Under the pieces are notes generated by a model that was given only the letters and a program-made list of their open reading frames with translations, was not told where the DNA came from and did not search any database. 64,000 nucleotides of DNA from Ostreococcus lucimarinus. Lineage: Eukaryota. This document shows positions 802 through 58,991 of the stretch, piece after piece (position 1 is the first letter of the stretch; the number at the start of each line of letters is the position of its first letter). Where the stretch lies: assembly GCA_000092065.1 (NCBI GenBank), contig CP000589.1; one strand, 5' to 3'. The position numbers and the translations under genes were made by a program.

Positions 802-1695
802 CGGCGGCGGCGCGACCGCGCCCGTGCGCGTCGTCGACCCTCTGCTCGGCGTCCGCGCGCGTCCCGCTCGCCGCGAGGTCGCCGCGTCGTCGCCTCGCCT
901 CCCCACCGCCACCGCGCGCGCCCATCGCGCGCTCGCGCGCGCGCGCGCCGTCGTCGCGATCGCCCGCGTCGACGCGCGCGCGATCCGCGGCATCGCGCGT
1001 CCCGCGCGCGCCGTCGTCGCGCCCGGCGCCGCGATTCCCAACCTCGTCGTCGTCATCGTCGCCGCGCGCGCCGCCGTCGCGCGCGCGCCTCGCCCGCGTC
1101 CGCTACCGGCGCGTCGCCCGCGTCGTCCGCGTCGCCGTCGACGCGCGCGGCTCGATCCGCGCGCGAGTCCGCGCGCGCGTCGCGAACCCGCGCGTCGCGT
1201 TGTCGCCCCGCATTACGACGCGCGGATTCGCGACGCGCCGACGCGCGCCTCGCCGACGCTCGACGTCGATCGACGCCTCGCGCGCGCGACGCCGCGACTC
1301 GCCGCGCCATGGCGTCGCGCGCGCCGCGCGTCGCGACGCCGCGCGTCGCCGTCGCCGCGCGCGGATTTCGTGACGGCGCGCGCGTCCGACGCGCGACGCC
1401 GTGGCGCGCGCGCGACCGCGTCGTCGCCGCCGCGGACGCGCGCGACGGCGCGAGCGACCGCGCGGACGCGTCGCGCGCGGGCGGTCGCGGCCGAGGTGCG
1501 ACCGCGCGACGCGCGAGTTCGCATCGCGCGCGAGCGTCCCTAACGACCTCGATCGACGAATGCGCGACGAATGGGCGACGACTGACGCGCGAAACGCGTG
1601 AAACAGGCGCTGCGCGACAGGGAGGACGCGGACGAGGACGCGGTGCGCGCGGGGGAGGGCGCGGACGGGGCGGCCGGGGACGGGTGCGGATACAG

Positions 1696-3752
1696 AGCGA
1701 TGGGAAACAACACCTCGGGCAGACGCTCGAGTACGCGAAGGAGAAGGCGTTTCCGAGCGCGAGCGCGGACGATTCGGGAGATTTGATCGATGATCCGCCG
1801 CTGAAGATACTGCCGCTCGGTGGGTTGGGTGAGATTGGGATGAATTGCATGCTCGTCGGGAGCGGGGATCGATACGTGCTGCTCGACGCGGGGTTGATGT
1901 TTCCGGAGTGAGTGCGCGAGGGCGAGCGAACGCGGCGCGAGCGAGCGAGCGACGACGAGAGCGCGAGGACTGACATGGGTTGCTTTGCGCGCGCGCGAAC
2001 AGTCACGAGGAATTGGGTATTCAGAAAGTGCTGCCGGACGTGTCGTTTTTGGCGCGTTGGAAGGATAAGATTGAGGCGGTGCTCATCACGCACGGACACG
2101 AGGACCACATCGGGGCGTTGCCGTGGGTCGTGCCCGCGCTCGACCCGTCGACGCCAATCTACGCGGGTTTGTTCACCATGCAGCTCATCAAGCGGCGCAT
2201 GCAGGAATACTCTCTGTGGAACGATCAACGGTTCAAGGTTTTCGACATGAACGAGCGGTTTCAGGCTGGACCGTTTGAGATGGAGGCGGTTCGCGTGACG
2301 CACTCCATTCCGGATTGTTGCGGGTTGATTTTCCGTTCAGAACACGGGACGATCGTGCACACGGGGGATTGGAAAATCGATGAAAATCCAGTCGATGGAC
2401 GCATATTCGATCGCACGTCGTGGGAACGCGTCGGGAACGAGGGCGTGACGCTCATGATGAGCGACAGTACCAACGTTTTGTCGCCGGGGCGCACGATCAG
2501 CGAATCCGCCGTGAGCGAGGGCATCATGCGTAGGGTGTTGGGCCATCGCGGACGGATCATCACCACACAGTTCGCGTCGAACATACATCGACTCTACGGC
2601 GTTCGCGCCGCGGCCGAGGCCACGGGGCGTCAGATTGCGTTCTTGGGCATGTCCTTGACGACGTACCTCGAGGCGGCGAAGCGAGCTGGCATCGCGCCAA
2701 TCGATCCTGAGAAACTCATCCCGGCAGACGAGATCGACAACTGCGATCCCAGTAAGTTACTCATCGTCACCACTGGGTCTCAAGGCGAAGAGCGCGCGCA
2801 ACTCGCCCTCGCTGCGCACGGAAGCTCGCGACTTTTGACGTTGCAACCGGAGGATCTGTTGCTGTATTCGGCGAAGATGATTCCCGGAAACGAAAAGCGA
2901 GTCATGCGTATGATGAATGAAATCGCCAAGCGCGGACCGGAGATCGCGATGGGACGCGAAGATTGCTTGCACTCATCGGGTCACGGGTACAAGGACGAAC
3001 TAGACGAGGTGATCAAGCTATTGAAACCCGAGCACTTCTTACCAGTGCACGGCGAGTATGCGTTTTTACGAGCGCACGAGCAACTTGCACGACAATCTGG
3101 CGTACGACACACGACTGTGATCGGGAACGGCGAGATGCTTGGTGTGACACCTTTAAGGAAGAAGCAATCACACGGCACTATGGGTAACTTTCACCGCATA
3201 GGAAAGGCGCGTTTACAAACAATGTTCAACGACGGAGGTTGGGGGAGCGGCACGTCAGAGGACATGGCCATCGAGGAACGAATGCGCATCGCCGTCGAAG
3301 GTATCATCGTGTGCGACTACGAAATTTCCAACGACGGTAATAATTTAATCGCCGCAAAGGCGCGCGTGACGTCGCGCGGCATGTGGACCGACGACGGTCG
3401 TCTGCTGGAGTCTGTGCGGTCGAGCGCCATCGCCGCGTCCGCCGACATGCCCGTCGGTACCAAGCTCAGCACCGTCGAACGCGCTGTATCCAGCGCCATT
3501 CGTTTCGCCGTGAAGAACTACTGCAACAAGCGACCAGATGTCATCGTCGTCGCGCATCGTGCGGGCGAGTCTTCACGTCCCATCCCCAAACTCGACGCCG
3601 TGGAAGACGACGACGACGACGAAGGCGGGCAAAAGCGATACCCCAAGCGCACGATGTCCCCGACCGACGTCAGACCGCTTCGAGGCGATTACAAAGGACC
3701 GGGACCATCGGGAGGCGAACGCCACAAACGTCGCGACTCGGAGTATCAGTGA
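1696..3752 (+). CDS. RNJ: Ribonuclease J (metallo-beta-lactamase/beta-CASP RNase, chloroplast type); two exons resolved (..1907, 2003..3752); 5' end unresolved
   Basis: Exon 1 ends ...[39 protein letters not shown](D). Exon 2 continues [12 protein letters not shown]...[15 protein letters not shown]...TGDWK.... Joined, this reads MFPD|HEELGIQK, matching plant RNase J MFPDYDELGVQK. Beta-CASP motifs and a C-terminal extension are present. No in-frame ATG lies upstream of PLKILPLGG, so a further 5' exon (probably a transit peptide) is likely. 1696 is only a candidate acceptor. Confidence 0.85.
1908..2002 (+). other. Spliceosomal intron of the RNase J gene (95 nt)
   Basis: Donor GTGAGTG at 1908, CTGAC branch motif at 1970-1974, acceptor AACAG at 2001-2002. 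Splicing removes the in-frame TGA at 1909-1911 and restores the conserved MFPD-HEELG junction. Confidence 0.8.
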
Positions 3753-50475: not shown

Positions 50476-51519
50476 CTACGCGGAGGCGTCGAACGGGGAC
50501 GCGCCCGAGACGCCGTCGAATTTGCAATTCGAAAAGTCCATCTCGGGGTGCGCCGCCATGAATTTTTTGAGCGCGTCTTGCTTCGTCTGCTCGTCCGCCG
50601 TGGGCAAGCCCATCGCCTTTTGCCTTTGATCGTACATCATTTTTTCCACCGTCGAGCGCGTTTCGCCGTCGAGATCGTCCAGGCGGCTGTTCTCGGGTTC
50701 GACCTTTTTGGTGTCGATTTTCGGGTCGTCGACGAGGACGTGCGGCCACCACTCGGCGCCGGTTTTCGCTTTTTGTAAAAAGCACGACACGTAGGCGTTG
50801 TCCTCCAGCGTCCAGTAGCACTCGTCCGGGGTGATGGCGGCGTAGAACTCGCCCTCGATGCGCGGCTCCCCGCTCGCCGTTTTAAGCTTGAACGAGAATC
50901 TATTCTTCGCGAAGGCGCACTCGATCTCCTTCGACTTGGTCCCCGGCGGCACCGCCACGCGCACCTCCAAATCATCCAACGTCTGCGTCCACACGTACTT
51001 CTCCGCTTCGCCGCCGTTCCCTTTATTCGGCATCATCGTTCCCGGCGCGAGCGCGTGCGGATCCTCCTCTTCCGCGTCGTTCGTCGTCGTCGTCGCCGTC
51101 GCCGCCGCCTCGGCGTCCTCGGTCACCTCCGTCAATTTTCCCTTACTTTTCTCCATCTGCATCTCCAGCGTTCGCGCTCGCAGCGCCTCCACGCGCTGTC
51201 TCTCCGCCTCCTCCATCGCCCGCGCCTTCGCCGCGTCTCTCTCCGCCTTCAACCGCGCCGCGTCGTCGTCGCTCGCCGTCGCCGTCGTCGCCGCCTTCGC
51301 CGCCTTCGCCGCCGCTCGACCCCGCGTCGTCTTTCCCAGCGCCTCCCGCACCGCCGCCCCCGCGCGCTCGGCGTCGACGAAGAAATCCGTTTTCTCATCC
51401 AGGAACGCGAAGAACGCGTCCAGCAGCGTCGCGATCGGCGTTTCCCCGGGCGCGGCGTTCGCCGCGCAAATCTGCGCCGCATTGATGAAAAGCGCGTCCG
51501 TCTGCCGTCTGTGCGCCAT
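50476..51519 (-). CDS. NUDC: NudC (nuclear distribution protein C; CS-domain co-chaperone)
   Basis: N-terminus DALFINAAQICAANAAPGETPIATLLDAFFAFLDEKTDFF, a charged coiled-coil, then the CS domain YVWTQTLDDLEVRVAVPPGTKSKEIECAFAKNRFSFKLK...YWTLED. C-terminus MMYDQRQKAMGLPTADEQ. Start at MAHRRQTD (ATG 51517-51519). The listed ORF is longer because it is open antisense to the next gene. Confidence 0.85.
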   Translation of the reverse strand: MAHRRQTDALFINAAQICAANAAPGETPIATLLDAFFAFLDEKTDFFVDAERAGAAVREALGKTTRGRAAAKAAKAATTATASDDDAARLKAERDAAKARAMEEAERQRVEALRARTLEMQMEKSKGKLTEVTEDAEAAATATTTTNDAEEEDPHALAPGTMMPNKGNGGEAEKYVWTQTLDDLEVRVAVPPGTKSKEIECAFAKNRFSFKLKTASGEPRIEGEFYAAITPDECYWTLEDNAYVSCFLQKAKTGAEWWPHVLVDDPKIDTKKVEPENSRLDDLDGETRSTVEKMMYDQRQKAMGLPTADEQTKQDALKKFMAAHPEMDFSNCKFDGVSGASPFDASA

Positions 51520-51814
51520 CGCTCGCGCCGCGCGCGCGTCCACGCGTCGCGTCGATCGCGACGAGGCCCTCGCGCGCGCGCTCGCGCGAACGCCGTCGAC
51601 GTCGCGACGCGACGCGCTCGATAGTGCCGCGTCGTGGATTCGAATCGCGTCGCGCGCGCCACTCCATCGCGCCCGTCGTCGCGCGCGCCGCTCGACCGCG
51701 CGCGGGCGTCGAGCGCGTTGTCGTCGACGTCGGCGCGCGCGCCGCGACGCCGCGACGCGCCGTCGGCGGCGGCGAACGCGCGCGAAAGATTCAAATCCGC
51801 GACAGCTGCGCGCG

Positions 51815-54811
51815 ATGACGACGACGACGATGGCGAGCGACGCGCTGAAGGCGCTGGAACCGGCGACGAGGGACGCGAACGCGTTCAAAGCGCGCGCGGC
51901 GCTGATCGCGATGCGTGAGATCATCGATGGGACGACGGAGGCGACGGAGGCGGGCGTCGGCGCGCGAGCGTGCTGGTCGGGCTGCCGCGAGTGGCTGGGA
52001 TCGGGAAAGAAAGACGCGAGAAAAGACGCGGTGAAGACGACGCTGGCGCTCATGCGGTGCGGAATAACGAGGGAAGAGATGGAGGATAAGCTGTCGTTCG
52101 CGTGGAAGCACGCGAACTGGCGGTTTCGAGTTTCGGCGATTGAAATTTTGAGCGCGACGATGGCGACGACGGAGGACGACGCGTTCGCGAGACGATGCTT
52201 TGATGCGTTCGCGCGGACGCTGGGGGATCGCGAAGGCGAAGTGCGCGAACAGGCGATGGATGGAATCGCGGTGGTGTTTGAAAAGTTTCCGCGCGTCGGG
52301 CGAGAGGCGCTCGAGGCGACGAAAGACGCGATGCGACCGCAACACGTCAAGGAGATCGAACGACGGTTGGACGGCGCGAAAGCGGAGACGAACGAGATGG
52401 AGACGTCGAAGTCGGCGAGCGAGAGCATGAGCGCGAGTGCGGTGGTGAAACCGCTGGGCGATGGATTGGTGCCGCCGCCGCCCGAACGTATATCCAACGA
52501 ACGAGAATTCACGCGCGCGATGGATCGCGTCACGCGAGACTTGCGCCCAGACGTGGATTGGCTGAAAAGAATCGCGGCTATGGTGCGTTTAGAGGCCATC
52601 ACGCTCGGCGGTGGCGGAGAGGTTTTCGAAGACGCGTTCACGTCGTCGCTCGGAAGAGCCGTGGAGGTGCTCTTGGCGCAAATTAGCGACAGACGAAGCG
52701 CCGTGGTGAAGCAAGTTTCTCACCTGCTCGTCACTCTGGCGCGCGGCGCGACGAAATCTTTCGCCCAATACGTCGATCATTTTGTCATGGCGCTCCTGAA
52801 AACGACTGTGGTTACCGTTGGTGTCATTGCCGACAGCGGAAATGCGTGCATTCGAGGCATCATCGAGCACTGCCACGCGCCGAAATTGGTCCAAAGATTA
52901 ACGGACGCCGTCGTCGCGGAGCGCGCGCCGAAGATGCGAGGCTGCATCGTGGAGTATCTTTCAATCATTTTGAAATCGTGGGAGTTGAGCAACCGTCACA
53001 TCGACGCCATCGGCGACGCTCTTCGAGTCACGTTGTCTGACGCGGATGCTACGGTTCGAGCGAATTCGAAAGCTTGCTTTGAGATCTTATCCGTGACGTC
53101 GCCGACGGCGAGCGGCGATCTCTTGACGCGCGTAGACTCGAAGCTCGCGAGAAGTTTGTCCAACTTGACCAACGACAGTGAGTCCGAAGAGACATCTTCC
53201 GTCGCTAGACGCGGTCGAAGCGGTTCGCTCTCGAGCGCGCCCAGTCGAATCGCGCCGGAAGCGCCTGCCGCCAAGAAACTGCCGACGCCGGCGCCCACCG
53301 AGGCGCGGGACATCGCTTCGGCGGTCATGTTCGCCGAACGCGTTGAACGCGCGGCTGAAAGAGCGAGTCGAGCCGAGGCAAGTTCGAGATTACGCGGCGC
53401 ACTCGACGACGCCGATGCACGCACGCACGGTGCGCGGGCGGCGCAGTTTGAGGCGCAGGTGACCCTGCACGCAGCGCGCATTGCCGAGCTTCTCTTGGGC
53501 TACATTTCTGACTCCAACGCCCTCGTTCTCGATCCTGCGCTCGAATCGATCGCCACGCTGGTGTACATCGCTTCGGAAGACTTGAAGCAAGTCATGCCAG
53601 ATTTGTGCTTGGGCGTATTCGAGTGCTTGACCGACCACCGCGAGTCGACGCGCTCTCTCTCCTCCGAAGCGCTCACCGCCATAGGCGACGTGCACAAGCC
53701 GAACGCTCTCTTGCCGGCGCTCTTGCGCTCATTACATCTCGCCTCGACGGCAAAAACAAAAACGGGTGTGTTAGAGTTCGCTTTATACGTTCTTTCCGGG
53801 CGCGGGGGCGGCGCGGATGAGGTCGTACACACGCCGGCGTCGGTATCCGCGAACTTGGAGTCGTGGATCGACCTCGTCGTTGAATTGGCGTGCGACGTCA
53901 ACGAACCGCTAGCCAAGGCGGCGGGGTCAAACTTGGGGGCGATCCACGTGCACGTCGACGGCGCAGTCGTACCGCGTCGGTTGTTGGCGAGCTCGGAATA
54001 TAAGCGAGTTCGGTTTATGGAAGCCATCGAGCGGCGCGTGCCTAAGCTCGCGGAAATGTTGCGACCATTTCTCGAAGCGCCGCCGACGCCGCCGCCAGCG
54101 CCGCCGCCAGCGCCAGCGCCCTCGCCACCGGTCGTCACAGCTACGATGCACGACGTTGGATACGACAGCCTTGACGAAGAACACGGGTATGAAGACCAGA
54201 ACATGGGGTCGCTGAACCGGTCCTATGAAACGATGCGTATCGAGGCGTCCGCAGGCAAGTCTCGCCACGCCGGCGTCGGCGAGCGAATCGTCGAGGCGAT
54301 GGAAGGCTTACGCGATGAGAATATCGACACGGTCGTGCGTTCGCTGCGCACGATCGCCTCGAGTGCCGAAGACTGCTTCGCACACTTCAAACCGTACATG
54401 CCGTTGCTCGTGCCTACCGTGTGTTCGGCGATGGACGATGAGAATGAACTCGTCGCCGCTCACGCCTATGGGGCACTTCGTGCAATTTTTCAACATCGAG
54501 AAATTGATACTGAGGACGCGTTTACCGCGCTCGCACCTTTGATTAACGCATATAGCGCGTCCACAGCGCCGCTCATATGCGCGCACATGATCATCGAAAC
54601 CGCCGATGCGGCGAGCGTGGAGTCATCGTTGCCGCTCGTCTTGCCGAGCGTCGCGGATGTGTGCGCGAGCAAGACCGTCGCCATTCGCCATCGCGCTTTG
54701 AACGCGCTCGGTGCGTGTCAACGCACATTCGGCGCGGCTTCGCTTTCGCCATACGTCGAAGCGTTATCGGTCACCCATCGCGCTGTGCTCGCCCATTACG
54801 CACGCAATTGA
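51815..54811 (+). CDS. TOG/HEAT-repeat microtubule-regulator-like protein (CLASP-like)
   Basis: About 1000 aa of HEAT repeats with TOG-type signatures: KLSFAWKHANWRFRVSAIEIL, LRPDVDWLKRIAAMVRLEAITLGG, and further repeats to the C-terminus. Start at MTTTTMASDALKALE (ATG 51815). TGTAA at 54815-54819. Divergent from NudC across ~295 bp. Confidence 0.45.
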   Translation: MTTTTMASDALKALEPATRDANAFKARAALIAMREIIDGTTEATEAGVGARACWSGCREWLGSGKKDARKDAVKTTLALMRCGITREEMEDKLSFAWKHANWRFRVSAIEILSATMATTEDDAFARRCFDAFARTLGDREGEVREQAMDGIAVVFEKFPRVGREALEATKDAMRPQHVKEIERRLDGAKAETNEMETSKSASESMSASAVVKPLGDGLVPPPPERISNEREFTRAMDRVTRDLRPDVDWLKRIAAMVRLEAITLGGGGEVFEDAFTSSLGRAVEVLLAQISDRRSAVVKQVSHLLVTLARGATKSFAQYVDHFVMALLKTTVVTVGVIADSGNACIRGIIEHCHAPKLVQRLTDAVVAERAPKMRGCIVEYLSIILKSWELSNRHIDAIGDALRVTLSDADATVRANSKACFEILSVTSPTASGDLLTRVDSKLARSLSNLTNDSESEETSSVARRGRSGSLSSAPSRIAPEAPAAKKLPTPAPTEARDIASAVMFAERVERAAERASRAEASSRLRGALDDADARTHGARAAQFEAQVTLHAARIAELLLGYISDSNALVLDPALESIATLVYIASEDLKQVMPDLCLGVFECLTDHRESTRSLSSEALTAIGDVHKPNALLPALLRSLHLASTAKTKTGVLEFALYVLSGRGGGADEVVHTPASVSANLESWIDLVVELACDVNEPLAKAAGSNLGAIHVHVDGAVVPRRLLASSEYKRVRFMEAIERRVPKLAEMLRPFLEAPPTPPPAPPPAPAPSPPVVTATMHDVGYDSLDEEHGYEDQNMGSLNRSYETMRIEASAGKSRHAGVGERIVEAMEGLRDENIDTVVRSLRTIASSAEDCFAHFKPYMPLLVPTVCSAMDDENELVAAHAYGALRAIFQHREIDTEDAFTALAPLINAYSASTAPLICAHMIIETADAASVESSLPLVLPSVADVCASKTVAIRHRALNALGACQRTFGAASLSPYVEALSVTHRAVLAHYARN

Positions 54812-55064
54812 CTTTGTAAATATTAAAAACAACCTGCTTGCCGAAGAGTTTACGCGACTGCACACGCTCCGTCATCCGTCGCCTCGCACGCGTCACCGAG
54901 CGCGGGTTTCCAATCGAACGGATCAACCCACGGCCCGAACGCGATAGCGTCATTAGCGTTGCCCGCCTTGCGCGAGGAGAGGCGACGAAGATGGATCGAA
55001 TTTAAAACGGTATCGCGCGCGATGCGGTGGCGCGCGCGTCATCGCGAGCGAGTGCGCGGAAATA

Positions 55065-56076
55065 TCATCGCTGAATGACGACGGCGCCGGCGAGACCGGC
55101 GTCGGCGATGACGGCGTCGTCGTCGGAGAGCGTTTTCGGCGGAAAGCCCGAGAGCTGCAGCGTGTACGCGAAGGATTCATCCGGGCGCGATCTCGCGATG
55201 AAAGAGTGGATGTGCGCGACGGTGTGCGTGGTGTTGAACTTGGCCACCAAACGGCTTCCGTCGCGAAGTCTGATTTGAATCGACGTCGTCGGTTGGGACT
55301 CGTCGACGTTCCACTCGACCGTCGACGCGGGCGCCGTCGATGCGGGCGCCGGTTCGCTGTCGCTCGCGAGCGTGCGCCCGGATCCACCGAACGCCCTGTA
55401 CTTTGGCTCTTTCGGCGGTACGTACGGCTCGTGACGCTGCACTAAATTGATGTTCACCCGTTCGGTTCTGCTCCGCGGCGCGAGCTCCGCCGGCGCCTCG
55501 CCGCGTCCGATGGACTCCATGAACGCCACGTTCGCGGGGTCATCGAACGTGCGCAGCGGTCCATCATCGACCGTGAACCCATTCTGCCAAAACGTGACGA
55601 CGCGACTGACGATCCCATCGTCCGCGTTCGCCGCCGTCGCCGCGCTCGCTTCCTCTTCGTCCGCGGCTTCTTCCTCCGCGCTCGAGTTCAGCGTTCGCCC
55701 GCGTCCTCGAAACGCCGTCGCCGCCCCGCCTCGCGCGCCTCGACTTTCATTCGGGTTCAAATCCTCCGCCGTGCCGTCCATCGCACCGTGCGCGCGAGCG
55801 CTGTCGAACATCGACGCCAGTCGCGCGTCGGGTCGCTCTCGCGGGTCGATCACCGCCTGCCCACTCGACGCGCCGCCCGTGTACCACTCCTGCGGATCGG
55901 GGCCGTTCGAGTCGGAGGCATCGTCGTTGCGTTCGTTCACGTCGCGCAGGCCGCGAACGTTGGACTGCGAGCGCGGTCAGTCGGTTGATTTCGATGTCGT
56001 TGAGATTACTGAGATGACCACGCGAGCGCGCGTCGCGCGTCGATCGGGACGAATCGCGCGCGCGCGGGCGTACCAT
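55065..56076 (-). CDS. p47/NSFL1C-like Cdc48 cofactor (SEP plus UBX domains); exon 2 55065..55964, proposed ATG-only exon 1 56074..56076
   Basis: SNVRGLRDVNERNDDASDSNGPDPQEWYTGGASSGQAVIDP (compare Arabidopsis PUX [41 protein letters not shown]). SEP: VTFWQNGFTVDDGPLRTFDDPANVAFMESIGRGEAP. UBX: TSIQIRLRDGSRLVAKFNTTHTV...LQLSGFPPKTLSDDDAVIADAGLAGAVVIQR. The listed ORF starts on a GTG. Its frame has a TGA upstream and no ATG before MFDSA, which would cut the conserved segment. Confidence 0.8.
55965..56073 (-). other. Proposed intron immediately after the p47 start codon (109 nt)
   Basis: Minus strand: ATG|GTACGCCC... ...AATCAACCGACTGACCGCGCTCGCAG|TCCAAC. It has a GT donor directly after the ATG, CTGAC 11 nt before the CAG, and removes the in-frame TGA. 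It is the only ATG on this strand between the GYF stop and the conserved coding block. Confidence 0.5.
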
Positions 56077-56231
56077 GTCGCGCGTGTTTCGTCGTGCGCG
56101 CCGTCGAGCGATCGGGAGACGTCGCGTCGCGAGGTGAGGTTCGTAACTGCTCCCGACTGGAACTACAATGACAAAGAGAAGAGTCGCTAGGCGTCTTCGT
56201 CGCCGGCGCCAATGCGGCGCCAAGGTGTCGG

Positions 56232-58991
56232 CTATTTCTTACCGCGGCGCTTCTTCTCCGCGGACGCCCAGCCGGCTTCGTTGTCCTCGCCGTCGGCACC
56301 GGAGAACCCGGGACCGGCGCCTTGAGCGGCCACCTTGGCGAGCTCGCCGTTGCCCAAACCTTCGGCGAGCGACGGGTCGGCGCGCTTTTGACGGATGAGC
56401 TCGACCGCGAACGCGCTAGCCTGCGGGGTTTTGCCCAAGTATAACGCGACGTACTCTTGAACCTCGCCCGCGGAGGGTAAACCGAGCAAGAAATCCACCA
56501 AAGTCATGTCGTCTGAATTGTTCAACTGGGACATTTGCGCCTTGCACCACGCGCGCAGGGCGTTTTTGTTGTTCAAAGGAGGCAAACCTGAAGGCAAGGG
56601 GGCGCTCGACGACATCGCGGACTGCGTGAGAGGGGCGACCGCGTTACCGATGACGGGTCGAGCCTTTGGCGCCTGCGACTGAGGCACAGACCTCGGCACC
56701 ACCATCGGCGCGGACGGACGCGGCGCGACTTGACTCGGCGCCGCGGCGGCGGCCCAGCCTCCAGAAGTTTGCATCGCCTGGTTTTGCTGGGCCATCGCCG
56801 CTTCAGCCTCGTGTTTCGCCGCGGCGCGCAACGCTTCCTCTTCCTGGATTTGCTTCAAGCTCTTGCCACCGCCGCCAGCGTTGCCACCCCAAGCCCCGCC
56901 GAAAGCGGTGTGCGTGCTCGGGGGCGGCGCGTTCTTCGCCGCTTGCGCGGCGCGCGCCTCTTCCTCGCGTTGAATATCCAGGAGCGTCTTACCGGCGACC
57001 GCCGCTGGTAGTGCAGGAGCGGCACCACCCCAGGCTGGTCCAGTCGGCGCCGCCTTCGCGGGTTCTGGTGCGGGTTCGACGCGCGGCGGCATCGTGACGG
57101 GGGGGGGCATCGCCGGCTGCGGCGGCGGTTGACGCGGCACATCTCGCGCTGCCGGTGGCGCGTCCCACTTCGAAGACGCATCCGCGCTCGCGACTTCTTG
57201 TCTACCACTTCTATCGTGCATGTGTCTGTTCTCGATGTCCGCGAGCGTCATACCGCGAGCTCGTGGCGGCGCCCCGCCCGCTTGACTAGATATCCCCAAG
57301 CCCGCGGCAAAGTTGGCGAGAGCGTTCGATCTCGCCGCTTGCTGCGACATGGCTTTAGGAGCGATGCCGTGCGACTGCTCTATCTCTTCTAACGTGAGAC
57401 CTCGCGGTGGAGGCGCTCCGGAAGGTTGCGCCTGCTGCGAGAGCCACGGTGGTAAACCGCCCTGCTGTCGCGGCGGCGGCGCCTGTTGTTGCGGCGGCGG
57501 CGCCTGTTGCATCGGGATGCGGTAGCGCCAGCCGTTTTGCAAGAGTTCGATTAACGGCATGAAGGGCGCACCGGCCGGAGCGTCGATCGGTTTGCACGGT
57601 AAATCGTTCGGAAAGAAGCCGCCTTGATGCCATTCTATGAGCTCTTGACGCGTGAACGGGCCCTGTTGCTGTCCCGAAGGATCGAGATAGAGCCAGTCGA
57701 CGTTTGCCGGTACCGGAGGCGGCAACTGCTGCTGCGTAGGCGGCATCTGTTGTCGTTGCTGCGGTGGGATCTGTTGCTGCGGCGGCGGCATCTGCATCGG
57801 CGGCATCTGCATCGGCGGCATCTGCACCGTTTGTTGCGGCGGCGCCTGCATCATGCCTCCGATGTGAGAGAGGTGCGGCATGAGCGTCTCGTCCTCTTCT
57901 AAAGCGACGAATCGAGATGTTCTCGATTGTTCTTGCGCTGGAACCGCGGGCTTGCCGAGACCAGCCAAACCGAGTCGTTCCTCCGCCGTGAGCTGCGGCA
58001 GCGCGGTACCCAAGAAAGAATCGTCCGTCAAGCTGGCGTCAGCCAAAGAGTTGCCTTCTTGAGCCCACTCGGGGACGTCGTCTTTCGCCTTACGGGTCGT
58101 CGTCGCCGCCGACGCCGCCGTCTTCGGTTCGGGCACCGGTTCCTTCTTCTTCTGCCAGTCGCCGTGGCGACCAATCATCGTCAGCTCCCACATCGGATCT
58201 CCCGGTTTGATCGCCTTCAACGGCACGTTCGTCCCGCACACGTCTTCTGGCAACTTACACGTCTGCAAAGCCTCCATCTCGCGCAGAATCGTCACCAACT
58301 GGGCGGCATCGTAGCGATACTTGGCGCCGTTCTCCTTCTTTTCTGGCGGCGTCTCCGCCGGCGCCGCGTCGTCGCCCGTCTTTTCGCCGTCGTCCGCAAA
58401 CTGCCCGCTCGCCGCTTTTCTCGCCATCACCGCATCGAAGAACGCATCGCTCACGCTGCTCACTTGCAACGCCCCCAAACTCAGCTCCAACGCCTGCCCG
58501 CCGCTCTTCCCGCGTCCCATCGTAAAACCGCGACCGGCGGGTCTCGTCGGAATCCCTTCCCGCGCCTGCGCGCGTCCGCTTCCGTGTCGTCCGCGCCCTT
58601 CGCCTCCCTCCGCCTTCGCATCGCCTCCCTCCGCTCGCTTCCCATCGCCGTCGATCCACGCCTTGGACCCCCACGAATCCCTCGCGTCTCGCTTGCCCCA
58701 CCCCGGCGGTCCGCCATCCTTCCCGTACTTCTCCCGTCGCTCACCTCGACTCGCGCGCTCGCGTCTCGACCCCCCGCTCGCCGCGCCCTGTCCATCGCCA
58801 TCGCCTCGCCACTTTACCTTCGCTTCCTCGCGCGTGTCGCTCTCTCGTCTCGCGCCGCCGTCGTGCGACTTTCGCGCGTCGCCGTCGCGATCGCGGTGTC
58901 CGTGCCCGTGCGCCGTGTGCCACCCCCCCCCGTCGTCCTGCCCGCGCGCGCTCGTCGCCCTCGACCCATCGTCGCCTTTCGCGTCGCTCAT
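56232..58991 (-). CDS. GYF-domain protein (proline-rich-sequence binder; GIGYF/EXA1-like), Q/P-rich
   Basis: GYF domain WLYLDPSGQQQGPFTRQELIEWHQGGFFPNDLPCKP. Long low-complexity Q/P/A stretches include a 15-nt x3 tandem repeat (MQMPP x3). Real ATG at 58989-58991. Confidence 0.75.
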   Translation of the reverse strand: MSDAKGDDGSRATSARGQDDGGGWHTAHGHGHRDRDGDARKSHDGGARRESDTREEAKVKWRGDGDGQGAASGGSRRERASRGERREKYGKDGGPPGWGKRDARDSWGSKAWIDGDGKRAEGGDAKAEGGEGRGRHGSGRAQAREGIPTRPAGRGFTMGRGKSGGQALELSLGALQVSSVSDAFFDAVMARKAASGQFADDGEKTGDDAAPAETPPEKKENGAKYRYDAAQLVTILREMEALQTCKLPEDVCGTNVPLKAIKPGDPMWELTMIGRHGDWQKKKEPVPEPKTAASAATTTRKAKDDVPEWAQEGNSLADASLTDDSFLGTALPQLTAEERLGLAGLGKPAVPAQEQSRTSRFVALEEDETLMPHLSHIGGMMQAPPQQTVQMPPMQMPPMQMPPPQQQIPPQQRQQMPPTQQQLPPPVPANVDWLYLDPSGQQQGPFTRQELIEWHQGGFFPNDLPCKPIDAPAGAPFMPLIELLQNGWRYRIPMQQAPPPQQQAPPPRQQGGLPPWLSQQAQPSGAPPPRGLTLEEIEQSHGIAPKAMSQQAARSNALANFAAGLGISSQAGGAPPRARGMTLADIENRHMHDRSGRQEVASADASSKWDAPPAARDVPRQPPPQPAMPPPVTMPPRVEPAPEPAKAAPTGPAWGGAAPALPAAVAGKTLLDIQREEEARAAQAAKNAPPPSTHTAFGGAWGGNAGGGGKSLKQIQEEEALRAAAKHEAEAAMAQQNQAMQTSGGWAAAAAPSQVAPRPSAPMVVPRSVPQSQAPKARPVIGNAVAPLTQSAMSSSAPLPSGLPPLNNKNALRAWCKAQMSQLNNSDDMTLVDFLLGLPSAGEVQEYVALYLGKTPQASAFAVELIRQKRADPSLAEGLGNGELAKVAAQGAGPGFSGADGEDNEAGWASAEKKRRGKK

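What the first reader, a model, noticed from the sequence alone, without database searches (positions are those of the whole stretch)
55965..56076. p47 gene appears to begin with an ATG-only coding exon followed at once by an intron
The conserved p47/PUX N-terminal segment (SNVRGLRDVNERNDD...PQEWYTGG) has an in-frame TGA upstream and no in-frame ATG before it. The only ATG on that strand in the 270-bp gap to the next gene is followed directly by GTACG. 109 nt later come CTGAC and CAG, which put SNVRGL... in frame and give M-SNVRGLRD.... This pattern, 5'UTR plus ATG, then an intron, would be missed by ORF-based annotation.
Basis: inference. Interest (0 to 1): 0.5.

Follow-up and report, generated by a model that had tools for sequence, protein, structure and literature searches.

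The report
Start-codon intron in Ostreococcus p47 gene

Summary
Confirmed and supported. The window is Ostreococcus lucimarinus CCE9901. On the minus strand a single ATG (56076-56074) lies between the upstream GYF gene and the conserved p47 block. It is followed directly by GTACGC. A 109-nt GT-AG intron (56073-55965; branch-like CTGAC, acceptor CAG) joins it in phase 0 to TCC AAC GTT (SNVRGL...). Eight assembled contigs from eight public sequencing runs, 99.3-99.9% identical to the window, carry exactly the junction 56074|55964. A UniRef protein of Ostreococcus sp. 'lucimarinus' (A0A7R9XS43, 300 aa) starts MSNVRGLRDV. The NCBI reference model (XP_001419840.1) is flagged partial and starts 6 nt inside the intron. 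The same ATG|GT[AG]CG...[C/T]AG architecture occurs in seven Ostreococcus lineages (introns 70-167 nt, otherwise unconserved). Two further lineages also have intron-less, transcript-like sequences. Micromonas-like relatives instead have a UBA-encoding first exon. Bathycoccus has neither a UBA domain nor this intron. Introns directly after the start codon are a described class (Nielsen and Wernersson 2006). The result is therefore a correct gene-model repair, not a new mechanism. Interest is low.

The parts
56074..56076 (-). Start codon ATG, the whole coding part of exon 1. The 5'UTR lies upstream (56077 onward); the transcription start was not determined.
   Evidence: It is the only minus-strand ATG in the 267-nt gap. 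It is joined directly to TCCAAC in 8 intron-less contigs. P0122 starts MSNVRGL.
55965..56073 (-). Phase-0 GT-AG spliceosomal intron, 109 nt.
   Evidence: Exactly these 109 nt are absent from contigs L003-L010, which otherwise match the window at 99.3-99.9%. An intron sits at the same position in 7 Ostreococcus lineages.
56068..56073 (-). 5' splice site GTACGC.
   Evidence: Read directly from the sequence. GT[AG]CG[CT] is conserved in all 7 lineages and in the Micromonas-like introns of the same gene.
55976..55980 (-). Branch-point-like CTGAC. The A at 55977 is 12 nt upstream of the last intron base. The motif also contains the in-frame TGA.
   Evidence: Read directly from the sequence. CTGAC or CTAAC lies 16-48 nt from exon 2 in 6 of 7 lineages. 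Its use as the branch point is inferred.
55965..55967 (-). 3' splice site CAG.
   Evidence: The junction in the contigs lies directly after this AG. The acceptor is CAG in 6 lineages and TAG in L019.
55065..55964 (-). Exon 2: codons 2-300 plus the stop (TAA, 55067-55065). It encodes a UBA-less SEP-UBX (p47-type) protein.
   Evidence: Translation. Pfam SEP 2.7e-27 and UBX 4e-15. Aligns to human p47 residues 73-368. NCBI XP_001419840.1 equals 'SQ' plus this exon exactly.
54940..55064 (-). Probable 3'UTR (125 nt), ending at a probable poly(A) site.
   Evidence: Five of the eight intron-less contigs end at the same base, window 54940. That this base is a poly(A) site is inferred.

Best explanation
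This is an ordinary U2-type spliceosomal intron in phase 0, placed between codon 1 and codon 2 of the Ostreococcus lucimarinus gene for a UBA-less p47/Shp1/PUX-type Cdc48 adaptor (SEP + UBX domains). Exon 1 carries the 5'UTR and only the ATG. Splicing removes 56073-55965 (GTACGC...CTGAC...CAG) and joins ATG to TCC AAC GTT, giving a 300-aa protein that starts MSNVRGLRDV. Splicing is obligatory: read from the same ATG, the unspliced RNA gives a 109-aa out-of-frame product. What is shown: the sequence signals, the exact junction in intron-less assemblies, and the conserved position across the genus. What is inferred: that those assemblies derive from RNA, that CTGAC is the branch point, and that the product binds Cdc48.
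For: (1) All sequence elements are in place and the ATG is unique in the gap. (2) Contigs L003-L010 come from 8 runs (SRR28369095, DRR066263, SRR7814522, SRR28369057, SRR25907260, DRR699222, SRR28369091, JGI 3300019261). All contain 40 nt of upstream sequence + ATG + 40 nt of exon 2 as one exact string with the 109 nt removed, and they match the window at 99.3-99.9%. (3) All 16 contigs carrying this protein are under 5 kb, and 5 of the 8 examined end at the same base 125 nt after the stop. The intron-containing form lies on contigs up to 526 kb. This is the pattern expected for transcripts versus genomic DNA. (4) P0122, UniRef A0A7R9XS43 of Ostreococcus sp. 'lucimarinus', is 300 aa, starts MSNVRGL and differs from the window model at 2 residues. 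(5) Second lineage: L001 lacks exactly the 70 nt GTGCGT...CAG that follow the ATG in L002, with 100% identical flanks. The intron-less form is only on contigs of 3.3 kb or less, and the intron-containing form on contigs up to 563 kb. (6) Third lineage: the MMETSP transcript ORF P0141 starts MVNVRSL, while the genomic loci L011/L012 read ATG|GTACGT...140-141 nt...CACAG|GTCAAC. (7) Seven lineages have ATG|GT[AG]CG[CT] and [C/T]AG at the same position. Their intron lengths (109, 114, 136, 70, 140, 150, 167 nt) differ by non-multiples of 3, so the segment cannot be coding. (8) The NCBI model is flagged partial and equals 'SQ' + exon 2.
Against: The library type (RNA or DNA) of the runs behind the intron-less contigs could not be looked up, and no paper in the library mentions them. 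The contigs also include the upstream GYF gene, so they do not reveal the transcription start. No read-level data were available, so splicing efficiency is unknown.
Confidence: 0.95

Rival explanations
1. The intron-less contigs are genomic DNA of strains that have lost the intron (a presence/absence polymorphism). In CCE9901 the segment would not be spliced, and translation would start elsewhere, for example at internal Met-53 (MFDSARAHG).
For: Library types are unverified. L001 also spans part of the convergent CLASP gene, which a genomic contig would do naturally.
Against: A precise loss of a GT...AG segment is itself the signature of a spliced intron. Intron-less forms occur only on short contigs in two lineages (16 of 16 under 5 kb; 7 of 7 at 3.3 kb or less), while intron-containing forms reach 526-563 kb. 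Five contigs share the same 3' end. An MMETSP transcript ORF shows the same join in a third lineage. Starting at Met-53 would drop the block conserved across green algae and plants (NVRG...PQEWYTGG). It would also require ribosomes to skip the only upstream AUG, whose 109-codon ORF (ending at 55747) extends past the Met-53 codon in another frame.
Confidence: 0.03
2. The gene has a further upstream coding exon (for example a UBA domain, as in Micromonas and most p47 proteins). The ATG at 56076 would then be internal or not the real start.
For: Micromonas-like orthologues do have a UBA-encoding exon 1 followed by an intron. Canonical p47 has a UBA domain (Pfam columns).
Against: The intron-less contigs are colinear with the window from inside or upstream of the GYF gene down to the ATG, with no other splice. 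The gap to the GYF stop is only 155 nt. The frame upstream of the ATG in the spliced form is not a UBA domain. tblastn of outgroup UBA exons against the whole window finds nothing better than E = 0.3. Pfam finds only SEP and UBX. The sister genus Bathycoccus also lacks UBA.
Confidence: 0.01
3. The signal is a chance juxtaposition of splice-like motifs and no functional intron exists. The protein would be made from a non-AUG start on an unspliced RNA.
For: The genome is GC-rich (63%), and GT[AG]CG[CT] is frequent (277 in 128 kb).
Against: ATGGT[AG]CG occurs only 4 times in 128 kb, and the site is the only one in the window that passes the combined filter. The architecture is conserved in 7 lineages although the intron interior is unconserved. 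The exact junction is observed.
Confidence: 0.01

Closest known systems
Start-codon introns: phase-0 introns between codons 1 and 2 (Nielsen and Wernersson 2006, BMC Genomics 7:256, PMC1626468)
   Same: The intron sits exactly after the ATG in phase 0, so the first coding exon is only the start codon. It is a conventional GT-AG spliceosomal intron that ORF-based annotation tends to miss.
   Different: [quoted passage not shown] Here the host gene is a Cdc48 adaptor in a prasinophyte alga, and the intron is restricted to one genus among the relatives examined.
NSFL1 cofactor p47 / yeast Shp1 (UBX domain-containing protein 1) / plant PUX proteins
   Same: It has SEP and UBX domains and two FxGxGxxL SHP-like motifs, at residues 86 and 193. 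It aligns end to end with human p47 residues 73-368 (E = 2.6e-42) and with yeast UBX domain-containing protein 1.
   Different: It lacks the N-terminal UBA domain and linker. In this it resembles UBA-less relatives such as UBXN2B/p37 and the roughly 300-aa Arabidopsis PUX listed. That comparison rests on my own knowledge and on protein lengths, not on a test run here.
Orthologous p47 genes of Micromonas-like Mamiellales (L015-L017)
   Same: The downstream neighbour (CLASP) and the intron signals (GTGCGT...CTGAC...CAG) are the same, and the NV[RK]G...PQEWYTGG block is shared.
   Different: Exon 1 encodes a 39-aa UBA domain. The intron is in phase 1 and lies about 55-60 codons upstream of NVRG. 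L017 has a second intron in the linker.

Membership tests
Start-codon intron (phase 0, between codons 1 and 2) | The intron begins immediately after the ATG and ends so that codon 2 follows in frame. | tested here: met
   ATG 56076-56074 | GT at 56073; AG at 55966-55965 | TCC at 55964. The junction ATG|TCCAAC is present in 8 contigs.
Start-codon intron (phase 0, between codons 1 and 2) | Spliceosomal GT-AG boundaries with a branch-point-like motif. | tested here: met
   GTACGC ... CTGAC ... CAG. The same signals occur in 7 lineages. Use of the branch site itself is not testable here.
Start-codon intron (phase 0, between codons 1 and 2) | The intron is removed from the mature mRNA. | tested here: met
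   There are intron-less contigs from 8 runs plus a UniRef protein starting MSNVRGL, and parallel cases in two other lineages. The RNA origin of the contigs is inferred, not read from metadata.
Start-codon intron (phase 0, between codons 1 and 2) | Typical host: a short, lysine-rich, conserved protein, often ribosomal. This is a tendency, not a requirement. | tested here: not met
   The host is a 300-aa SEP-UBX adaptor. This does not affect membership, which is defined by position.
p47 / Shp1 / PUX (SEP-UBX Cdc48 adaptors) | SEP domain. | tested here: met
   PF08059, E = 2.7e-27, residues 124-198.
p47 / Shp1 / PUX (SEP-UBX Cdc48 adaptors) | C-terminal UBX domain. | tested here: met
   PF00789, E = 4e-15, residues 223-299. 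PDB p47 UBX hits.
p47 / Shp1 / PUX (SEP-UBX Cdc48 adaptors) | SHP box (FxGxGxxL). | tested here: met
   FRGRGRTL at residue 86 and FGGSGRTL at residue 193. The motif definition comes from my own knowledge.
p47 / Shp1 / PUX (SEP-UBX Cdc48 adaptors) | N-terminal UBA domain (canonical p47). | tested here: not met
   There is no UBA in Pfam and no UBA-like sequence in the window. The protein is therefore a UBA-less member of the SEP-UBX group, not a canonical p47.
p47 / Shp1 / PUX (SEP-UBX Cdc48 adaptors) | Binds Cdc48/p97. | not testable with these tools
   Inferred from the domains only.
U12-type (minor spliceosome) intron | Extended donor [AG]TATCCTT and a TCCTTAAC-type branch site. | tested here: not met
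   The donor is GTACGCCC and the branch-like motif is CTGAC. The consensus sequences are from my own knowledge.

The most novel reading that the evidence does not exclude
The ATG-only exon is the eroded remnant of the ancestral UBA-encoding first exon. On this reading, the lineage leading to Ostreococcus lost the UBA domain and linker but kept the 5' intron. All seven Ostreococcus lineages then retained it because a 5'-proximal splicing event benefits export or expression in this very compact genome. That is the idea proposed for Ostreococcus introns in general by Lanier et al. 2008 (PMC2367439). The evidence allows this: Micromonas-like orthologues have a UBA exon followed by an intron with the same signals. 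It does not demonstrate it: the outgroup intron is in phase 1 and about 55-60 codons upstream, and Bathycoccus has neither UBA nor intron. A de novo gain in the Ostreococcus ancestor is equally possible.
Probability: 0.25. Interest if true: 0.4.

Novelty: new member of a known kind. Interest (0 to 1): 0.2.

Why it matters
It completes a reference gene model. XP_001419840.1 of O. lucimarinus CCE9901 is 5'-partial and starts inside the intron. The corrected CDS is join(56076..56074, 55964..55065) on the minus strand of the window. The case also shows that some 'partial' or start-less models in Ostreococcus genomes may be repaired by looking for ATG|GTRCG. [quoted passage not shown] The case further documents loss of the UBA domain from the p47-type adaptor in Bathycoccaceae. 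None of this changes how introns or p47 are understood.

Tried and rejected
(1) A snoRNA or other RNA in the intron: the Rfam E-value scan of 55800-56400 gave only a sub-threshold radC hit outside the intron (17 bits against a gathering score of 40). The intron interior is also unconserved between lineages. (2) A gene on the opposite strand or in another frame: the overlapping ORFs 55447-56190(+), 55747-56223(-) and 56006-56299(-) have no Pfam hit, and such shadow ORFs are expected at 63% GC. (3) A hidden UBA exon: tblastn of outgroup UBA exons against the window gave nothing better than E = 0.3. (4) Other start-codon introns in the window: a motif and ORF scan found only this one. The filter is strict (GTRMG donor, CTRAY within 55 nt, ORF of at least 100 aa), so it is not an exhaustive survey. 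(5) Library type of the runs: a full-text search for six run accessions found no paper. (6) Literature on Ostreococcus start-codon introns: neither Lanier et al. 2008 nor the 2026 O. tauri T2T preprint mentions them. (7) Named O. tauri or other annotated orthologues: the clusters of the other lineages carry no species names, so I could not tell whether another reference annotation already models the ATG-only exon. (8) A script artefact: the script chose an ATGGT inside the L002 intron. The real donor, ATG|GTGCGT with a 70-nt intron, is fixed by the L001/L002 comparison.

Full report
**Observation**

The gene lies on the minus strand.
- ATG at 56076-56074, followed directly by GTACGC (56073-56068).
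- CTGAC at 55980-55976.
- CAG at 55967-55965.
- TCC AAC GTT CGC GGC CTG (SNVRGL) from 55964, in a frame open to the stop at 55067-55065.

The frame of the conserved block is closed upstream by TGA at 55979-55977. Between the stop of the upstream gene (a 919-aa GYF-domain protein, ORF 58991-56232) and 55964 there is only one minus-strand ATG, and it is out of frame with the block. The proposed intron is 109 nt.

The combination is not common. ATGGT[AG]CG occurs 4 times among 1387 ATGs on both strands of the window. A scan of the whole window for ATG+GTRMG, then CTRAY, then YAG, then an ORF of at least 100 aa returns only this site.

**Identity of the sequence and state of the annotation**

The protein has SEP and UBX domains. 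It aligns to human NSFL1 cofactor p47 over residues 73-368 of 370, and also to yeast UBX domain-containing protein 1.

A database search and cluster look-up identify the organism. The NCBI protein XP_001419840.1/ABO98133.1 is annotated 'predicted protein, partial [Ostreococcus lucimarinus CCE9901]'. It is 301 aa and equals 'SQ' plus the translation of exon 2 without a single difference. The window is therefore this reference genome or something indistinguishable from it here.

The reference model is 5'-incomplete and starts at 55970, 6 nt inside the intron. Prokaryote-style gene callers on metagenomes start the ORF at the GTG at 55940 instead (MNERNDD/VNERNDD).

**Direct evidence for the splice**

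The same cluster holds P0122, which is UniRef100_A0A7R9XS43 of Ostreococcus sp. 'lucimarinus'. It is 300 aa and starts MSNVRGLRDVNERNDD. It differs from the spliced window model only at R191K and H254R.

Sixteen contigs encode exactly this protein, and all are shorter than 5 kb. I aligned the eight with the most DNA to the window. They come from eight different runs: SRR28369095, DRR066263, SRR7814522, SRR28369057, SRR25907260, DRR699222, SRR28369091 and JGI 3300019261.
- Each is 99.3-99.9% identical to the window in two blocks. The first block ends at 56074.
- The 83-nt string made of window 56116-56074 joined to 55964-55925 is present exactly in all eight.
- Five of them end at the same base, window 54940, which is 125 nt past the stop. 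That fits a poly(A) site.
- The intron-containing version of the gene lies on contigs up to 526 kb.

Short intron-less contigs with a shared 3' end, next to long intron-containing contigs, is the pattern expected of transcript versus genome assemblies. I could not read the run metadata, and a full-text search for the accessions found nothing. RNA origin is therefore a strong inference, not a recorded fact.

**Two further lineages show the same thing**

P0004 and P0005 are about 72% identical to the window protein and nearly identical to each other, but their read-through N-termini differ. Their contigs L001 (2.5 kb) and L002 (from a 40.5-kb contig) are 100% identical over 588 nt upstream and 301 nt downstream. 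L001 lacks exactly the 70 nt GTGCGT...CTGACCGAGATCCCGCAG that follow the ATG in L002, which gives ...AAG ATG|TCC AAC ATC (M-SNIRGF). In that lineage too, the intron-less form is only on contigs of 3.3 kb or less, and the intron-containing form is on contigs up to 563 kb.

In a third lineage, an MMETSP transcript ORF labelled complete (P0141) starts MVNVRSL. The genomic loci L011/L012 read ATG|GTACGT...140-141 nt...CACAG|GTC AAC GTT.

**Conservation**

Seven Ostreococcus lineages were examined, with 68-98% protein identity to the window.

| Lineage | Intron length (nt) |
|---|---|
| Window | 109 |
| L019 | 114 |
| L013 | 136 |
| L002 | 70 |
| L011/L012 | 140-141 |
| L014 | 150 |
| L020 | 167 |

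- All have an ATG followed directly by GT[AG]CG[CT], and an intron that ends in CAG (TAG in L019) exactly before [S/A/V]N[V/I]R.
- Six of seven have CTGAC or CTAAC 16-48 nt before exon 2.
- The interior is otherwise unconserved, and the lengths differ by non-multiples of three. This excludes a coding segment and any conserved embedded RNA. Rfam also finds nothing in it.
- Gene order (TsaE, GYF, p47, CLASP) is shared.

**Outgroups**

In Micromonas-like contigs (L015-L017), the orthologue has a first exon that encodes a 39-aa UBA domain (...AISAFF|G). An intron with the same signals follows (gtgcgt...ctgac...cag). The second exon starts at EHGD, about 55-60 codons upstream of the NVRG block. L017 has one more intron in the linker.

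Other green-algal and plant homologues have UBA, a linker, and then [S/G]NVRGF.

Bathycoccus, from the same family as Ostreococcus, has no UBA. Its ORF runs uninterrupted from the ATG: M-GGDNTN-NTPRTLKDI...PQEWYTGG.

Among the relatives examined, UBA is therefore absent from both Bathycoccaceae genera, and the start-codon intron is found only in Ostreococcus. Two origins are possible. The intron may be the ancestral post-UBA intron that survived erosion of exon 1 down to ATG. Alternatively, it may be a gain in the Ostreococcus ancestor. These data cannot decide between them, because position and phase differ from the Micromonas intron and Bathycoccus has no intron there.

**Mechanism**

This is a conventional U2-type GT-AG intron in phase 0 between codons 1 and 2.
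- The donor is GTACGC, which does not resemble a U12 donor.
- The branch-like CTGAC places its A 12 nt from the 3' end of the intron.
- Splicing is required for the protein. Translation of unspliced RNA from the same and only AUG gives a 109-aa out-of-frame product.
- The next in-frame Met, residue 53, lies downstream of the conserved N-terminal block.
- The mature protein is a UBA-less SEP-UBX adaptor with two SHP-like FxGxGxxL motifs, at residues 86 and 193.
- Its binding to Cdc48 is inferred from the family and was not tested.

**Comparison with what is known, and novelty**

[quoted passage not shown] This case meets the positional definition but not the typical host class.

The correct protein sequence is already in UniRef, from a sequence of the same species. 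What is missing is the genomic model in the NCBI reference annotation. I found no paper that mentions start-codon introns in Ostreococcus. I could not check the JGI or ORCAE gene models.

The finding is correct and is a useful annotation repair. Biologically it is a new member of a known kind, and I score its interest at 0.2. The most novel reading still open is that the ATG-only exon is a vestige of the lost UBA exon, kept because a 5' splicing event is advantageous. I rate this at about 0.25 probability and moderate interest.

Noticed in passing
window 54889-54973 (minus strand), within and just beyond the p47 3'UTR: Five related Ostreococcus lineages (L011, L013, L014, L019, L020) carry a rhodanese-domain gene between p47 and CLASP. 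The window has a clean deletion of about 809 nt relative to the 90%-identical L019 (L019 2472-3280; junction at window 54973/54970). Only the last 27 codons of the rhodanese gene remain (54969-54889, 93% aa identity, E = 1e-11). The probable p47 poly(A) site at 54940 falls inside this remnant. L002 also lacks the gene and has no detectable remnant.
   Followed up: partly
window 59076-54940 (minus strand); loci L003-L010: The intron-less, transcript-like contigs join the complete GYF gene and the p47 gene in one contig. L003 runs from 85 nt upstream of the GYF ATG to 125 nt past the p47 stop, and only 155 nt separate the GYF stop from the p47 ATG. Either the two transcripts overlap and were merged by the assembler, or read-through (bicistronic) RNA exists. 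The p47 transcription start is unknown.
   Followed up: no
L021 (Bathycoccus prasinos, OZ117189.1) 1501-3153: The NCBI Bathycoccus model P0099 appears to splice out a conserved in-frame stretch right after PQEWYTGG (GASSGQNVIDPSK...). It also has a C-terminal extension of about 80 aa unrelated to UBX, encoded some 380 nt downstream, which suggests a mis-modelled or fused gene. In addition, p47 is inverted relative to its CLASP and GYF neighbours compared with Ostreococcus.
   Followed up: partly
L016 1123-1560, L017 881-1620; protein P0013: In Micromonas-like metagenome contigs the post-UBA intron is sometimes free of stops in frame, so prokaryotic gene callers report an intron-retaining 436-aa 'protein' (P0013...AFFGAPRPSVSPRS...EHGD). 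Such database entries overstate the linker length.
   Followed up: partly
window 50858-54811 (+): The mechanical 1317-aa ORF for the CLASP-like gene starts with about 330 aa of low-complexity, Ala/Ser/Arg-rich sequence before a plausible Met (…MTTTTMASDALKALEP…). The true start is therefore probably internal, and the upstream part is GC-driven open frame.
   Followed up: no
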